IMG/VR virus record: IMGVR_UViG_3300005253_000193
Coordinates: 32,001 to 96,000 of that record
Source of the DNA: a virus
DNA: 64,000 bases
Direction: 5' to 3' (one strand)
Shown in pieces: positions 52,938 through 56,240 of the stretch. The position numbers and the translations under genes were made by a program. Position 1 is the first letter of the stretch; each line of letters starts with the position of its first letter. The notes under the pieces are model-generated. The model made no database searches. It saw only the letters and a program-made list of their open reading frames with translations, and was not told where the DNA came from.

Positions 52938-53939
52938 TCACATCTTGAAGGACGGAGCCTGCATCCACACCCCATCCTTGAACCAAGTATGGGTGGTGAC
53001 TAGGCTGATGTAATGAACCCGCGCCCCGTCGACGACGATCTGTCCAACGAACTGATCGTTCTTGATCGTGATGAGCACAACGTCGGGGAAGGTGGTAGAT
53101 GCTTCCTCCCGCTTCTCCGTGAATTCATCGTCCAGGAGGCCGATGATGATGTTTTTCGTGTCCTCCCGTTCCGCTTTGGAGACGGATTCAAGCGCATCCC
53201 CCAAGCCCCCCAGATTGTCGACTTTGGGGAGAGGACGACGCTGCGGCTCCTTGCCGATGCCCAGCTTGATTTGACGGACTGCTTCACTTCCATAGCACTC
53301 CCTGATGAGAGCTTCCCAAATCTCACGGAAGTACCGTCGGGAGGGGGAACGCTCAATGCCAACCAGCCGCCCACCGATGATGATAAGAGCCCCAACCTGT
53401 TTGGGCACACGCTCGAACTCGGCCACAAACAAGTCCAGTTCCTTTTGGAACTTGTCCATGAAGTCGATCAGGTCTCCAGGGCCGCTTAGTCCAGCCTCGG
53501 TCTTGAAGTTCCTGATGTTACCCCAGATGGCGGAGAAGTCGGGGTTGGCATTGGTGAGAGCTGCTTCCCTGAGGGACCAAGGGAGCAAGGAAAACTTGTG
53601 CTCACCACGCGGGATAGTTCCGCCTTGGGTTTCCTGGACACACAACGCATTGTCGAAGACTCGCCTGCCCTTGACGAAGCCACCCTTGCGGAGAGCATGA
53701 TCTTGAGCTCTCTCGCGGACGAGGTAGGCGGTTTGTGGCGGGACCAGGATCTCCTCGTCCGGGGACCTTGCGTCGATGTTCAGGTTTCCATAGGTGCTGT
53801 TATGAACCGTGGCCCCCTCAGGGCTGACAAATCTGTCATCCTCCAGGTCACTCAGCAGGGGAATGACCTGCATGATGCCGACGGTCTGCATCCGCCCAGG
53901 GGTGCATCCCCTGAGCATTTCGGAAATGTTGCGGGTCAT
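52938..53939 (-). CDS. ARPP-like (DUF6569/ARPP-1 or ARPP-2-like) protein
   Basis: 'MQVIPL', 'AQDHAL', 'CVQETQGG', 'FVAEFE.VP.QVGA', 'GIE..PS'; family recalled from memory. Confidence 0.55.
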   Translation of the reverse strand: MTRNISEMLRGCTPGRMQTVGIMQVIPLLSDLEDDRFVSPEGATVHNSTYGNLNIDARSPDEEILVPPQTAYLVRERAQDHALRKGGFVKGRRVFDNALCVQETQGGTIPRGEHKFSLLPWSLREAALTNANPDFSAIWGNIRNFKTEAGLSGPGDLIDFMDKFQKELDLFVAEFERVPKQVGALIIIGGRLVGIERSPSRRYFREIWEALIRECYGSEAVRQIKLGIGKEPQRRPLPKVDNLGGLGDALESVSKAEREDTKNIIIGLLDDEFTEKREEASTTFPDVVLITIKNDQFVGQIVVDGARVHYISLVTTHTWFKDGVWMQAPSFKM

Positions 53940-53960: not shown

Positions 53961-54128
53961 TTAATTCGCATCTGGCGCATCATCGTCGTCGCCGGTCAAC
54001 CAATTGAGCATGGCGACCAAACCATCTTCGTAACTCTTACCTTCGTAATGAGTTCCTTGGTCCTGGCCTTCATTTGCCCAATTCGCTACCCTATCGATCT
54101 CATCATCAGAGCGTTTGATGACACGCAT
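53961..54128 (-). CDS. 55-aa acidic protein (not in the ORF track)
   Basis: MRVIKRSDDEIDRVANWANEGQDQGTHYEGKSYEDGLVAMLNWLTGDDDDAPDAN; GGGAG SD; fills the gap in the operon. Confidence 0.7.
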   Translation of the reverse strand: MRVIKRSDDEIDRVANWANEGQDQGTHYEGKSYEDGLVAMLNWLTGDDDDAPDAN

Positions 54129-54140
54129 TTAACGTCTCCC

Positions 54141-55778
54141 CTATTCAAACCACCCAAGATCACCAAGCCGATGCTCCTTGATGGTGCTGGTGAGGATCAT
54201 GGTGATAGCTTTCTTGATGTCCGTATTGATGAACAACTTCAGGGCGGAACTCACCAAAGCTTCGGGGCTGACTACGGGTATGGCTGCGCTGACCCCACCA
54301 AGGACCCGGATACCCTCGGACTCGGCCCCTGTAACCGGCGAGACTTGGATCACAGGCGTATCTATGCCCATGTCCCTAACTCGCTCCAGGGTGTCGCCGA
54401 AGCGGCCAGCCGGGGCATTTTCGTAGCCGTCGGTAATGACGAAGACTGCATCGGGTTCGTGCTCCAGGAGACCAACCAAGGAAAGTGCCAGATTGGTATC
54501 ACCCTTGGGCTGAATAAGGGCACCCTGACCATTCCCTCCGACGTAGTGGACAGTGGACAGATTCGACGCTGCACGCAATACATCCTCGACTGCCAGAGCG
54601 ACGGCAATGGGATGAAGCTTTTGGGTCTTATGTCCATACATGGACGCCGATGCATCGACTATGATACCGACGTTCTCATAATGGAAGGGAAGCGTTTTGG
54701 CAACGTCCTCAGCCTTCTTGTCTAGGGCTTTCCTGATCTCAGCCGTCATGCCCATCTCGTAGGCGTAGATGTACAGCTTGACGGCATCATGCTTGAGAGG
54801 ATCGAAGGCAACCTCGACACCTTCCCGTTTGGCTTGGGCCTGTACGTTGATACGTTGCTTGGAAGACATCTGGTCCTTAGCCAGCTCAAGGACTTCCCCA
54901 CTTTTCACTTCCTTGTGGAACTGTCCACGGATTCCCTCCAGGACCTCTGGGGGAAGCCTTTCACCCTTGCTCAGATCATTACGCGCCTTGCGTACAGCCG
55001 CAATGATTGGAGCATCAGGATTTTCCGTTACATAGGGAACGGAAGATCCCAAGGCGTAGGCGATGGCCAAACGAGACTCGATGCCGGGGGAAGGAAAACC
55101 AGGAATATATCTGTAAACATTTTCCCTGATCAGTTTGGTCTCATCCGGCTCCCACTCCTGATAAGGGCGTTGAAGAATGGAGCGAATGACACCGGACAAC
55201 TTCTGGCCCCACACATGTCGGAGGATTGCCCCGTACTTGCGTCGATACCTGACTGCCCTCATTTCGAGGGAACCCACCGCCCCGGTATGGAGAAGGTGGC
55301 GGAGGATCAGCTTCCTCGTCCGCATGTTGTTGATCCTGGCCTGCCCAGCCATGACAAACGTCCTGAGCTGGCGCGGGACGGTGATCCCGTCGCACAGATA
55401 TTCCAGGAGATTCCGCTCCATCTCGGCGTGATGCTTTTTGGTGGTCTGAAGCATCCCTCCGCTGTGCTTATCCGAAAGCAGGCGAAGGATGCCTTGCTGC
55501 CTCGACCTGTCCATGACACCCGGCAGGGCCAAGACCGCACCATATAGGAGGCGGTCGTACAGGAACATCTTTTTGTGCGCCTCCAACTCGGCGGCTTCCT
55601 GTTCCTCCTTGGAGTTGTAGAAGGTCGCTCGGCCCTTGGCGGTGATCACGAAGTCCAGAAAGGACTCCAGGTCCTTTGAAAGACTGACGAACTGGCTGTT
55701 GGGAAGATGGATGGGAACCATAAGCTGGCTCCTGACGGCGGGCAGAGACGCGGACACTGCGGGGATGTTCTGGTTCAT
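54141..55778 (-). CDS. Helical N-terminal + vWA domain protein (Ro60/TROVE-like architecture)
   Basis: MIDAS motifs 'IVDASASM', 'GDTNL', 'ITDGYEN'; about 370-aa basic helical N-terminus; 545 aa, similar in size to Ro60/Rsr. Confidence 0.65.
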   Translation of the reverse strand: MNQNIPAVSASLPAVRSQLMVPIHLPNSQFVSLSKDLESFLDFVITAKGRATFYNSKEEQEAAELEAHKKMFLYDRLLYGAVLALPGVMDRSRQQGILRLLSDKHSGGMLQTTKKHHAEMERNLLEYLCDGITVPRQLRTFVMAGQARINNMRTRKLILRHLLHTGAVGSLEMRAVRYRRKYGAILRHVWGQKLSGVIRSILQRPYQEWEPDETKLIRENVYRYIPGFPSPGIESRLAIAYALGSSVPYVTENPDAPIIAAVRKARNDLSKGERLPPEVLEGIRGQFHKEVKSGEVLELAKDQMSSKQRINVQAQAKREGVEVAFDPLKHDAVKLYIYAYEMGMTAEIRKALDKKAEDVAKTLPFHYENVGIIVDASASMYGHKTQKLHPIAVALAVEDVLRAASNLSTVHYVGGNGQGALIQPKGDTNLALSLVGLLEHEPDAVFVITDGYENAPAGRFGDTLERVRDMGIDTPVIQVSPVTGAESEGIRVLGGVSAAIPVVSPEALVSSALKLFINTDIKKAITMILTSTIKEHRLGDLGWFE

Positions 55779-55804: not shown

Positions 55805-55881
55805 GGCCCGGTAAGGTCGTTCGTCAGTTTTGCGTAGACACTCCTGAAGTGTATGCTGTACTGACAGACTAGTTCCGGGCC
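55805..55881 (-). ncRNA. Structured RNA unit 1 (Y-RNA-like stem with mini hairpin payload)
   Basis: GGCCCGG/CCGGGCC end stem, AACUAG/CCUUA internal loop, GUCAGU/ACUGAC stem, UACAG, hairpin ACAC-UUCAGGA-GUGU. Confidence 0.75.
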
Positions 55882-55904
55882 ACTTGGTCGTTCATTTTAT
55901 TACA

Positions 55905-55985
55905 GTCCGGTAAGGTTGTTCGTCGTGGTGCGTCATTGATCGACTTCAACGTCGAGGATGCTGTAACGGCGATCTAGTTCCGGAC
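55905..55985 (-). ncRNA. Structured RNA unit 2
   Basis: GUCCGG/CCGGAC end stem, same internal loop, CGCCGU/ACGACG stem (one mismatch), UACAG, hairpin UCGAC-GUUGAA-GUCGA, payload ends ACCA. Confidence 0.75.
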
Positions 55986-56010
55986 CTTTTTTAACAATTG
56001 GTTTAGGCGA

Positions 56011-56132
56011 GCCGGTAAGGATGTACGTTGTATTTGGTGGATGTGATTGGAATCGAACCAATTACACACTGATTGAAGTCAGTTGCTCTACCGAATGAGC
56101 TACATATCCTGTAACAACGTTCTAGTTCCGGC
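56011..56132 (-). ncRNA. Structured RNA unit 3 enclosing a complete tRNA-like cloverleaf
   Basis: GCCGG/CCGGC end stem, same internal loop, ACGUUGU/ACAACGU stem, UACAG. Confidence 0.8.
56035..56109 (-). tRNA. tRNA-like element (75 nt, encoded CCA) with non-canonical 6-nt anticodon loop CUUCAA
   Basis: GGATATG TA GCTC ATTCGGTA GAGC A ACTGA CTTCAA TCAGT GTGTA ATTGG TTCGATT CCAAT CACATCC A CCA. Confidence 0.85.
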
Positions 56133-56210
56133 CCTCCCAGCAACAAAGGAGTTGAAAATGGCGGGAGCCACTTCCATTGGGATGGTCTGCCAAAACCACC
56201 ACCAAAAATG

Positions 56211-56240
56211 ATACTACTACGCCCCCAAATGCTTTGGCAA
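56211..56240 (-). promoter_or_regulatory. Putative sigma70-like promoter for the RNA array/vWA operon
   Basis: TTGCCA-18 bp-TAGTAT on the minus strand, with a very AT-rich tract upstream (56245-56275). Confidence 0.45.

What the first reader, a model, noticed from the sequence alone, without database searches (positions are those of the whole stretch)
56035..56109. Complete tRNA with a 6-nt anticodon loop nested inside a carrier stem
The cloverleaf has an acceptor stem (one A-C mismatch), a D arm with GG, a T loop UUCGAUU and encoded ACCA. Its anticodon loop is CUUCAA (6 nt, not 7). From memory, the arm ACUGA..UCAGU and D arm resemble tRNA-Thr(UGU)/Lys-type tRNAs with an altered, shortened loop. 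Both tRNA ends run into the flanking stem, so it is either a non-decoding mimic or must be excised (RNase P plus 3' trimming). The loop contains UCA, which would be an opal anticodon if it decodes at all.
Basis: partly seen in the sequence, partly recalled or inferred. Interest (0 to 1): 0.8.

Follow-up and report, generated by a model that had tools for sequence, protein, structure and literature searches.

The report
tRNA look-alike on a Ro60-type handle
The odd "tRNA" with a six-base anticodon loop is most likely not a decoder: it looks like the tRNA-shaped head of a small Y-RNA-like RNA whose stem is the probable docking site for a very diverged phage Ro60-type ring protein encoded just downstream, a module that recurs in about a hundred phage and bacterial loci and that I did not find described in the papers I could search.

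Summary
Observation confirmed. On the minus strand at 56109-56035 lies a full cloverleaf: ARAGORN calls tRNA-??? with a 2-base anticodon, Rfam tRNA scores 58 bits. It has a 6-nt loop CUUCAA and an encoded ACCA, and it is nested in a two-part stem.

It is the first of three tandem RNAs that share one handle: P1, a conserved internal loop, P2, then UACAG. They lie 26 nt upstream of a 545-aa protein that no sequence library recognises. Its predicted structure matches Ro60 over the full length (Z 18.3).

The same RNA handle, the Ro60-like gene and an ARPP-1 gene recur in about 100 loci, often inside large tRNA arrays. The handle shows strong covariation. The anticodon loop varies freely: many triplets, A34 in 11 of 68, and lengths of 5, 6 and 8 nt in separate clades. 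The payload here matches a phage tRNA-Thr(UGU) whose loop CUUGUAA became CUUCAA. TGA is the genome's commonest stop.

Best reading (about 0.75): a non-decoding tRNA mimic on a Y-RNA-like scaffold. It is wired unlike YrlA, because the acceptor end joins the handle. That makes it a new variant of a known kind.

This scan found the same system before in at least 8 other genomes.

The parts
56009..56134 (-). Unit 1, the whole Y-RNA-like RNA. In order: P1 (56134-56128 with 56015-56009); internal loop AACUAGA / ACAUCCUUA; P2 (56120-56114 with 56031-56025); internal loop UACA / ACCAAAU; tRNA-like payload.
   Evidence: Read from the sequence. RNAfold gives a nested closing stem, z -2.75. CM R1 scores 91.3 bits over the full model. 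P1 and P2 covary across 37 loci.
56035..56109 (-). tRNA-like payload: a complete cloverleaf with a 7-bp acceptor stem (one A.C mismatch), D, anticodon and T arms, a 5-nt variable loop and an encoded ACCA.
   Evidence: ARAGORN tRNA-??? (tc). Rfam RF00005 at 58 bits. 85.5% identical over 54 nt to a phage tRNA-Thr(UGU).
56073..56078 (-). 6-nt anticodon loop CUUCAA, closed by the 5-bp stem ACUGA/UCAGU.
   Evidence: The aligned tRNA-Thr(UGU) has CUUGUAA on the same stem. The same CUUCAA occurs in the unrelated locus L075.
55904..55986 (-). Unit 2: the same handle (GGUCCGG-AACUAGA-UCGCCGU-UACAG ... ACGACGA-ACAACCUUA-CCGGACU) with a short non-tRNA payload, a 5-bp hairpin CGACG/CGUCG... with a 6-nt loop.
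   Evidence: Alignment of the three units. Fold. CM R1 with filters off gives 29.7 bits, E 3.6e-6, as a handle-only match.
55805..55881 (-). Unit 3: the same handle with a short hairpin payload. It ends 26 nt before the start codon of the Ro60-like gene.
   Evidence: Fold z -4.31. CM R1 gives 36 bits, E 1.3e-7.
54141..55778 (-). 545-aa Ro60-like protein (P0001): a helical-repeat ring plus a C-terminal vWA domain with the MIDAS motif D375-x-S377-x-S379.
   Evidence: No hit in Pfam, PHROGs, NCBIfam, PADLOC or PDB sequences. AF2 model pLDDT 88.5. The top 13 Foldseek hits are all Ro60. VIA-align Z 18.3 with 412-415 residues aligned to X. laevis Ro60, Z 15.5-16 to Thermus phage Ro60, Z 12 to D. radiodurans Rsr. 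The MIDAS residues are invariant in 35 homologs.
53961..54128 (-). Small 55-aa ORF between the Ro60-like gene and the ARPP gene.
   Evidence: Translation. Its conservation was not tested.
52938..53939 (-). 333-aa ARPP-1 domain protein, the constant downstream partner gene.
   Evidence: Pfam PF20208, E 2.8e-21. A homolog lies directly downstream on the same strand in 93 of 104 related loci. Invariant Q79, H81 and C100.
56211..56240 (-). Sigma-70-like promoter match upstream of unit 1 (weak evidence).
   Evidence: 9 of 12 consensus matches. Two such sites were found in the region against 1.0 expected by chance.

Best explanation
The element is the tRNA-mimic 'head' of a Y-RNA-like small RNA. It is not a decoding tRNA.

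Three tandem RNAs on the minus strand share one handle: a GC-rich closing stem P1, a conserved asymmetric internal loop (5' G-N-A-C-U-N, 3' A-A-C-Y-U-N-C type), a second stem P2, and the motif UACAG. Each carries a different payload. The first payload is a complete cloverleaf derived from a tRNA-Thr(UGU)-type gene whose anticodon loop has shrunk to 6 nt.

Inferred steps:
- The handle is the docking site for the Ro60-like ring protein encoded 26 nt downstream, as the conserved stem of Y RNAs is for Ro60.
- The tRNA-shaped payload is displayed to recruit, occupy or bait tRNA-binding factors such as processing, modification or repair enzymes, or anticodon nucleases.
- The ever-present ARPP-1 protein is the enzymatic partner.
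- The RNAs are made from one promoter together with the operon and then processed.

Shown here:
- the RNA architecture and its covariation;
- the synteny of RNA, Ro60-like gene and ARPP gene;
- the Ro60-like predicted fold;
- the freedom of the anticodon loop.

Not shown here: binding, processing, expression and the biological role.
For: (1): P0001 matches Ro60 structures over its full length (Z 18.3, 412-415 residues), well above the vWA-only hits (Z 12 or less); the top 13 Foldseek hits are all Ro60.

(2): in 93 related loci the covariance model finds full-length handle-plus-tRNA-like units. All are on the gene's strand and most lie 100-600 nt upstream. About 68 loci score at least 60 bits, and many have 2-3 tandem units or a short handle-only unit.

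(3), on an alignment that was not fitted to a structure: 93.4% of cells are paired against 68.8% in shuffles (0 of 500 reach the observed value). Double changes occur in 6 of 7 P1 pairs and 4 of 5 P2 pairs. Sliding the partner columns lowers pairing to 28-44%.

(4): anticodon loops keep Y-U...R-A flanks, but the triplet changes even among near-identical Pirellulaceae RNAs (CUU, UUU, AUU, AUG, UAG). Of 68 distinct calls, 11 have A34. Loops of 5, 6 and 8 nt occur. Only 10 of 68 have 7 acceptor pairs, and ARAGORN does not of 113 units as tRNA at all.

(5): the 6-nt loops (window, L075, L037) sit in separate clades.

(6): the payload equals a tRNA-Thr(UGU) D arm and anticodon stem, with the loop changed from CUUGUAA to CUUCAA.

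(7): TGA ends 64 of 140 long ORFs.

(8) Precedent in the literature: Ro60 orthologs bind Y RNAs encoded next to them, at least one of which carries a tRNA-like domain, and this includes phages (PMC4201824; 10.1101/312249; PMC12135203).
Against: - No sequence method links P0001 to TROVE. Pfam finds nothing even at E 10. hhalign of the family profile against two canonical TROVE proteins is not significant. The Ro60 relation therefore rests on a predicted structure.
- The canonical Ro-binding motif (GNCGAAN0-1G or CGAA on the 5' strand) is absent from the 5' strand of the handle.
- No expression, processing or binding data could be obtained.
- Most payloads keep a canonical 7-nt loop with U33 and a purine at 37. 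A phage clade, including this one, keeps a good acceptor stem plus ACC(A). Some released, tRNA-like activity is therefore not excluded.
- The RNAs could act in cis as a leader that regulates the operon rather than as trans-acting Y RNAs.
Confidence: 0.75

Rival explanations
1. Caged pre-tRNA. RNase P and 3' trimming release the 75-nt payload, which then acts as a charged tRNA. With a 6-nt loop it would be, for example, a frameshift-promoting or UGA-reading tRNA.
For: - A 7-bp acceptor stem with a single A.C mismatch, discriminator A and an encoded CCA, and all tertiary-interaction nucleotides of the D and T loops.
- Related phage units also keep ACC(A) after the acceptor stem.
- M. smegmatis YrlA, which has a 7-bp acceptor stem, is cut by RNase P and receives CCA in vivo (PMC4201824).
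Against: - A 6-nt loop cannot present a normal 3-base anticodon.
- The loop is a shortened UGU loop, not a designed UCA.
- TGA is the main stop codon.
- Relatives carry unnatural A34 triplets, loops of 5 to 8 nt and poor acceptor stems. Decoding is therefore not the conserved function.
- The conserved parts are the handle and the tRNA elbow, not the anticodon.
Confidence: 0.07
2. Cis-acting leader. The three structured units are not stable trans-acting RNAs. They form a 5' leader through which the Ro60-like protein, or a tRNA-related signal, controls transcription or translation of the operon.
For: - The units lie directly upstream of the gene on the same strand. The last one ends 26 nt before the ATG, and its GC-rich P1 is followed by a U-rich stretch.
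- Only one weak promoter-like site lies upstream.
Against: - In other loci the units lie up to about 2 kb from the gene. Some are separated from it by ordinary tRNA genes or lie downstream of the gene pair, e.g. L078 6104-6243. That fits independent RNA genes better.
- Canonical Y RNAs are likewise encoded beside Ro60 yet act in trans (PMC4201824).
- The two roles are not mutually exclusive.
Confidence: 0.1
3. An ordinary tRNA gene with a one-base assembly or sequencing error in the anticodon loop.
For: - Everything except the loop length is canonical.
- Reads could not be inspected.
- No near-identical contig was found.
Against: - The site has no homopolymer longer than 2.
- Compared with the tRNA-Thr(UGU) loop, both a deletion and a substitution are needed.
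- Six-base loops recur in independent assemblies and clades: L075 has the identical CUUCAA, and L037, L063 and L096 also have 6-nt loops. Loops of 5 and 8 nt occur as well.
- The gene is embedded in a conserved handle that ordinary tRNAs lack.
- The phage already has its own tRNA-Thr(UGU).
Confidence: 0.03
4. A decaying tRNA pseudogene caught between repeated palindromic elements, with no function.
For: The loop is defective, the acceptor stem has a mismatch, and the flanks are repeats.
Against: The handle and payload architecture is conserved with compensatory changes across phyla and phages, and it is always linked to the same two genes. Among Pirellulaceae genera the RNA is more than 90% identical apart from the anticodon.
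Confidence: 0.03

Closest known systems
Bacterial and phage Ro60 (Rsr) with YrlA/YrlB Y RNAs (Salmonella rsr-yrlBA-rtcBA, M. smegmatis, mycobacteriophages; PMC4201824, 10.1101/312249)
   Same: - A ring protein with a vWA domain.
- Small RNAs encoded beside it, often several in tandem.
- One RNA has a stem as the protein-binding module plus a domain that mimics the tRNA D/T elbow.
- Companion RNAs carry smaller payloads, as YrlB does.
   Different: - YrlA is a circularly permuted mimic. The Ro-binding stem takes the place of the anticodon stem, the acceptor stem is a closed hairpin and there is no anticodon loop.
- Here the order is that of a normal tRNA (acceptor, D, anticodon, T). The handle extends from the acceptor end and an anticodon arm is present.
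- The GNCGAAN0-1G motif is absent from the 5' strand.
- Pfam TROVE does not recognise the protein.
- The operon partner is ARPP-1, not RtcB/RtcA.
Deinococcus radiodurans Yrn1 Y RNA (PMC4201824)
   Same: It was modelled with the Ro-binding helix at the end that corresponds to the tRNA termini, and with an 'anticodon arm' of 5 bp and a 6-nt loop. That is the same wiring and the same loop length as here.
   Different: - Yrn1 lacks a full D arm and a variable arm, and its Ro-binding helix resembles that of metazoan Y RNAs on both strands.
- Here the cloverleaf is complete (58 bits to Rfam tRNA) and the handle has its own conserved loop.
- No homology between the two was tested.
Thermus phage phiLo Ro60 with Yrl1/Yrl2 (PDB 9KOP, 9L5Y; PMC12135203)
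   Same: - A phage-encoded Ro60 that has diverged far from cellular ones.
- Two Y-like RNAs lie just upstream of the gene.
- It is a structural match to P0001 at Z 15.5-16.
   Different: - The phiLo RNAs are stem-bulge-stem with a CGAA motif and no tRNA-like domain is reported for them.
- No ARPP partner and no tRNA-array context is reported.
Ordinary phage tRNA-Thr(UGU), e.g. Aeromonas phage LAh10
   Same: The D arm and anticodon stem are identical and the T loop is canonical: 85.5% identity over 54 nt.
   Different: - The loop is CUUGUAA (7 nt) in the real tRNA and CUUCAA (6 nt) here.
- The acceptor stem is different.
- The real tRNA has no flanking handle and sits in a plain tRNA cluster.

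Membership tests
Functional elongator tRNA | 7-nt anticodon loop with a 3-base anticodon | tested here: not met
   The loop is the 6-nt CUUCAA. ARAGORN reports a 2-base anticodon, and Rfam needs a deletion in the loop.
Functional elongator tRNA | Cloverleaf with a 7-bp acceptor stem, D/T-loop tertiary nucleotides, a discriminator and CCA | tested here: met
   Rfam tRNA at 58 bits. The ARAGORN drawing shows 6 of 7 acceptor pairs, GG in the D loop, T loop UUCGAUU and an encoded ACCA.
Functional elongator tRNA | Free 5' and 3' ends after processing; aminoacylation | not testable with these tools
This needs northern blots, RACE and acid gels.
Ro60 / TROVE protein family (for the partner protein P0001) | Sequence match to Pfam TROVE (PF05731) | tested here: not met
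   - No Pfam hit even at E 10.
- A six-frame search of the whole genome finds none, while the control genomes do give hits.
- The family profile finds no Ro60 in PDB sequences.
- hhalign against two canonical TROVE proteins gives probabilities of 0.3% and 5.6%.
Ro60 / TROVE protein family (for the partner protein P0001) | Helical-repeat ring followed by a vWA domain, matching Ro60 over the full length | tested here: met
   AF2 pLDDT 88.5, pTM 0.86. Z 18.3, rmsd 4.6-4.7 A, 412-415 residues aligned to 1yvr and 2i91. All the top full-length hits are Ro60. This is a predicted structure, not a solved one.
Ro60 / TROVE protein family (for the partner protein P0001) | MIDAS motif in the vWA domain | tested here: met
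   D375, S377, S379 and D450 are invariant and T428 is nearly invariant in 35 homologs. The motif aligns with the DVSGSM motif of a canonical TROVE protein.
Ro60 / TROVE protein family (for the partner protein P0001) | Binds a stem of an adjacent small RNA | not testable with these tools
   Only synteny and covariation support it. There is no protein-RNA docking tool.
YrlA Y RNA family | Permuted tRNA mimic: the Ro-binding stem is at the anticodon-stem position, the acceptor hairpin is closed and there is no anticodon loop | tested here: not met
   The order here is acceptor, D, anticodon, T. The handle joins the acceptor end and the anticodon arm has a loop. The YrlA description is taken from 10.1101/312249 and PMC4201824.
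YrlA Y RNA family | GNCGAAN0-1G motif on the 5' strand of the Ro-binding module | tested here: not met
   The 5' strands read CCGGAACUAG... in all three units. GACGAACG occurs only on the 3' strand of unit 3. The family consensus on the 5' strand is G-N-A-C-U.
YrlA Y RNA family | tRNA-like D/T elbow, and encoded next to a Ro60-type gene | tested here: met
   Canonical D and T loops. The unit lies 230 to 350 nt upstream of the Ro60-like gene on the same strand.
Any curated Rfam family other than tRNA | Match to a covariance model that covers the handle | tested here: not met
   At E up to 10 in the window region, and E up to 0.1 in nine related loci, only RF00005 matches the payload apart from chance hits.

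The most novel reading that the evidence does not exclude
The handle is a universal adaptor that lets a diverged Ro60-type ring, together with the ARPP-1 enzyme, display interchangeable tRNA-shaped baits whose anticodon loops evolve fast. This includes shortened loops such as CUUCAA. The particle would sense, soak up or repair damage from anticodon-loop-targeting nucleases, or would select particular damaged tRNAs for turnover. That would make it an undescribed arm of the phage-host conflict over tRNAs, and it would explain why the module sits inside large mobile tRNA arrays.
Probability: 0.25. Interest if true: 0.85.

Novelty: new variant of a known kind. Interest (0 to 1): 0.6.

Why it matters
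Ro60/Y-RNA particles are a conserved but poorly understood RNA-surveillance machine, and in humans Ro60 is a major autoantigen.

This locus belongs to a large branch that sequence annotation misses. More than 260 protein homologs were found, in phages, Planctomycetota, Myxococcota, Bacteroidota and Actinomycetota. In this branch the partner RNAs carry whole, normally wired tRNA look-alikes on a common handle.

The free variation of the anticodon loop and the placement inside tRNA arrays tie the system to tRNA damage or tRNA-directed conflict. That makes the long-open question of what tRNA-like Y RNAs are for directly testable.

There is also a practical point for annotation. These elements are called as tRNAs with odd or undetermined anticodons, and they should not be counted as decoders or suppressors.

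Tried and rejected
**Sequence searches that found nothing**
- P0001 has no hit by sequence in Pfam (also at E 10), PHROGs, NCBIfam, PADLOC or PDB, either as a single sequence or as a family profile.
- hhalign of the family profile against two canonical TROVE proteins gave nothing significant.
- Rfam at loose thresholds gave only tRNA, plus chance matches to CRISPR repeats and Plastid-ycf2.
- Simple word searches for CCGGAACTAG or CCTTACCGG in related loci mostly failed, because the handle is conserved in structure more than in sequence. A loose regular expression was too unspecific.

**Assembly-error test**
- Exact-pattern scans of viral and metagenome contigs that allowed 5-8-nt loops found no near-identical copy.
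- blastn against GenBank phages found only an ordinary tRNA-Thr.

**Other**
Nothing can be said here about whether they dock.
- Opal-suppressor reading: rejected because of TGA usage and the origin of the loop.
- Recent copy of one of the phage's own tRNAs: rejected, with only 46-49 identical positions to its Lys, Thr and Pro tRNAs.
- Literature searches found no paper that describes this RNA, protein and ARPP module. The ARPP paper lists other neighbourhoods only (PMC9503650). The held library is incomplete, so this is not proof that the module is undescribed.

Full report
**Observation**

ARAGORN reports a single tRNA-like gene in the 64-kb window, at exactly the given coordinates but on the minus strand. 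It calls it tRNA-??? with a two-base 'anticodon'. Rfam's tRNA model matches 56038-56109(-) at 58 bits and needs a deletion in the anticodon loop.

The ARAGORN drawing shows these features:
- a 7-bp acceptor stem with one A.C mismatch;
- a canonical D arm with GG;
- anticodon stem ACUGA/UCAGU closing the 6-nt loop CUUCAA (56078-56073);
- a 5-nt variable loop;
- T loop UUCGAUU;
- an encoded ACCA.

Both ends run on into two flanking helices. P2 is 56120-56114 with 56031-56025. P1 is 56134-56128 with 56015-56009. The tRNA part is separated from P2 by an internal loop, UACA on one side and ACCAAAU on the other.

**Surroundings**

The element is the first of three tandem units on the minus strand: 56134-56009, 55986-55904 and 55881-55805. 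All three share the frame 5' CCGG-AACUAG-(stem)-UACAG ... (stem')-A-C-N-N-CCUUA-CCGG 3'. Units 2 and 3 carry only short hairpins in place of the cloverleaf.

Twenty-six nucleotides after unit 3 a 545-aa ORF begins (55778-54141). It is followed by a 55-aa ORF and a 333-aa ARPP-1 (PF20208) gene. The neighbours are phage replication genes: a DnaB-like helicase, a topoisomerase-like protein and an SNF2 helicase. The record is a 105,963-bp virus contig rated complete. It has three ordinary tRNAs elsewhere and no further handle units.

**The protein**

P0001 has no hit in Pfam (even at E 10), PHROGs, NCBIfam, PADLOC or PDB sequences. It does have more than 260 homologs at about 40% identity, almost all unnamed.

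An AlphaFold2 model built on 35 homologs is confident, with pLDDT 88.5 and pTM 0.86. The top 13 Foldseek PDB hits are all Ro60. VIA-align gives:
- Z 18.3 over 412-415 residues to Xenopus Ro60;
- Z 15.5-16 to Thermus phage phiLo Ro60;
- Z 12 to D. radiodurans Rsr;
- Z 12 or less for hits that cover only the vWA domain.

The vWA MIDAS residues are invariant in the family. Sequence-profile methods still fail to connect the family to TROVE. The Ro60 assignment therefore rests on predicted structure and architecture.

**The RNA family**

I fetched 104 loci that encode homologs: 74 from bacterial genomes or MAGs and 30 from IMG/VR. ARAGORN showed a tRNA-like call just upstream of the gene in most of them, with odd and variable 'anticodons'. 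Many loci lie inside very large tRNA arrays, with up to 36 tRNA genes in 7.4 kb.

The flanks of these upstream calls form the same two helices and the same conserved loop as in the window. RNAalifold recovers P1, P2 and the three tRNA arms.

I ran the covariation count on the MAFFT alignment, which was not fitted to any structure:
- 93.4% of cells pair, against 68.8% in shuffles (0 of 500 reach the observed value).
- Pairing falls to 28-44% when the partner columns are slid.
- Six of 7 P1 pairs and 4 of 5 P2 pairs show compensatory double changes.

A covariance model built from this alignment finds full-length units on the gene's strand in most loci. About 68 loci score at least 60 bits. Units are frequently present as 2-3 tandem copies or are followed by a shorter handle-only unit. 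The window scores 91 bits for unit 1. With filters off, units 2 and 3 score 30 and 36 bits as handle-only matches.

An ARPP-1 homolog lies directly downstream in 93 of 104 loci. No Rfam family other than tRNA matches these RNAs.

**Is it a decoder?**

Across 113 full-length units the anticodon loop usually keeps the Y-U...R-A frame, but the triplet is highly variable.
- Among near-identical Pirellulaceae RNAs from different genera, almost the only variable block is the anticodon: CUU, UUU, AUU, AUG, UAG.
- Eleven of 68 distinct ARAGORN calls have A34.
- Loops of 5, 6 and 8 nt occur.
- Only 10 of 68 have seven acceptor pairs.
- Thirty-eight units are not called as tRNA at all.

Six-base loops occur in the window, in L075 (the identical CUUCAA), in L037, L063 and L096. 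In a protein tree the window, L075 and L037 fall in separate clades (quick tree).

The window's payload is 85.5% identical over 54 nt to a genuine tRNA-Thr(UGU) of Aeromonas phage LAh10. The D arm and anticodon stem are identical. The real tRNA has the loop CUUGUAA and the mimic has CUUCAA. The 'UCA' is therefore a remnant of a shortened UGU loop.

TGA is the commonest stop of long ORFs in this genome, 64 of 140. An opal suppressor is therefore neither needed nor likely to be tolerated.

**Mechanism**

I commit to this reading, at about 0.75. The unit is a Y-RNA-like small RNA. The P1/loop/P2 handle binds the Ro60-like ring. The cloverleaf is a non-decoding tRNA mimic displayed to tRNA-binding factors.

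Shown here: architecture, covariation, synteny, fold prediction and anticodon freedom. Inferred: binding, co-transcription from the weak promoter match at 56240-56211, processing and role.

The link to tRNA arrays, and the published link between Salmonella rsr-yrlBA-rtcBA and damaged tRNAs (PMC7790460; only its title and abstract were seen here), suggest a role in the response to tRNA damage. The particle may serve as a bait or decoy for anticodon-loop nucleases. That part is speculation.

Excision by RNase P remains possible, because the 7-bp acceptor stem and ACCA resemble M. smegmatis YrlA, which is cleaved and receives CCA (PMC4201824).

**Comparison with the known**

It works like Ro60 with YrlA/YrlB, but it is not a YrlA family member.
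- YrlA is circularly permuted, lacks an anticodon loop and joins the Ro-binding module at the anticodon stem (10.1101/312249; PMC4201824). Here the wiring is that of a normal tRNA joined at the acceptor end.
- The GNCGAAN0-1G motif is absent from the 5' strand.
- The wiring recalls D. radiodurans Yrn1, which was modelled with a 5-bp anticodon stem and a 6-nt loop (PMC4201824). Yrn1, however, lacks a full cloverleaf.
- Thermus phage phiLo Ro60 with Yrl1/2 (PMC12135203) is the nearest phage precedent, but no tRNA-like domain or ARPP partner is reported for it.
- The ARPP paper (PMC9503650) lists other gene neighbourhoods and none with a Ro60-type gene.

I found no description of this module in the held literature. 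That library is incomplete.

**Earlier notes of this scan**

After I had formed this reading, the index showed that the same three-part system had already been reported by follow-up agents on at least eight other genomes. Their conclusions agree with mine. I did not use them as evidence.

**Limits**

**Verdict**

The feature is real. It is a new variant of a known kind: a Ro60/Y-RNA particle with a tRNA-mimic RNA. The 6-nt loop is one expression of a relaxed or diversifying anticodon loop, not a sign of exotic decoding.

Noticed in passing
L039 and L112 (Minicystis rosea CP016211.1, about 8,256,684-8,263,368): A canonical Pfam-TROVE gene (565-aa ORF, 125 bits) lies about 3.5 kb upstream of the diverged Ro60-like gene. 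The two are separated only by a run of about 22 tRNA genes. Both Ro60 types therefore flank the same tRNA array.
   Followed up: partly
L001-L059 and L080-L089: About 23 of 93 related loci sit inside dense tRNA arrays, with 7 to 36 tRNA genes in 7.4 kb on both sides of the Ro60-like/ARPP pair. In Pirellulaceae a tRNA-Cys(GCA) always directly precedes the mimic.
   Followed up: partly
window 56153-56176 (-): A 10-bp hairpin followed by a U-rich tail lies between the promoter-like site (56240-56211) and unit 1. It could be the terminator of the upstream DnaB-like gene or a leader element. Its position after the putative promoter is odd.
   Followed up: no
window 53961-54128 (-): A 55-aa acidic ORF sits between the Ro60-like and ARPP genes. 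The spacing between these two genes in other loci ranges from about 110 to 430 nt, so a small gene may be present in some of them.
   Followed up: no
L075 5632-5795; L011 3688-3763; L078 6139-6499: Related loci contain further unusual tRNA calls: two adjacent ones with 4-base anticodons (ggga), one with ccaa, a 2-base 'ta' call and a CUA (amber-reading) call. These suggest more non-standard tRNA-like genes around this module.
   Followed up: no
genome C1:26833-27354 (outside the window): The phage's three ordinary tRNAs, Lys(UUU), Thr(UGU) and Pro(UGG), are clustered and all encode CCA. The mimic is not a recent copy of any of them.
   Followed up: yes
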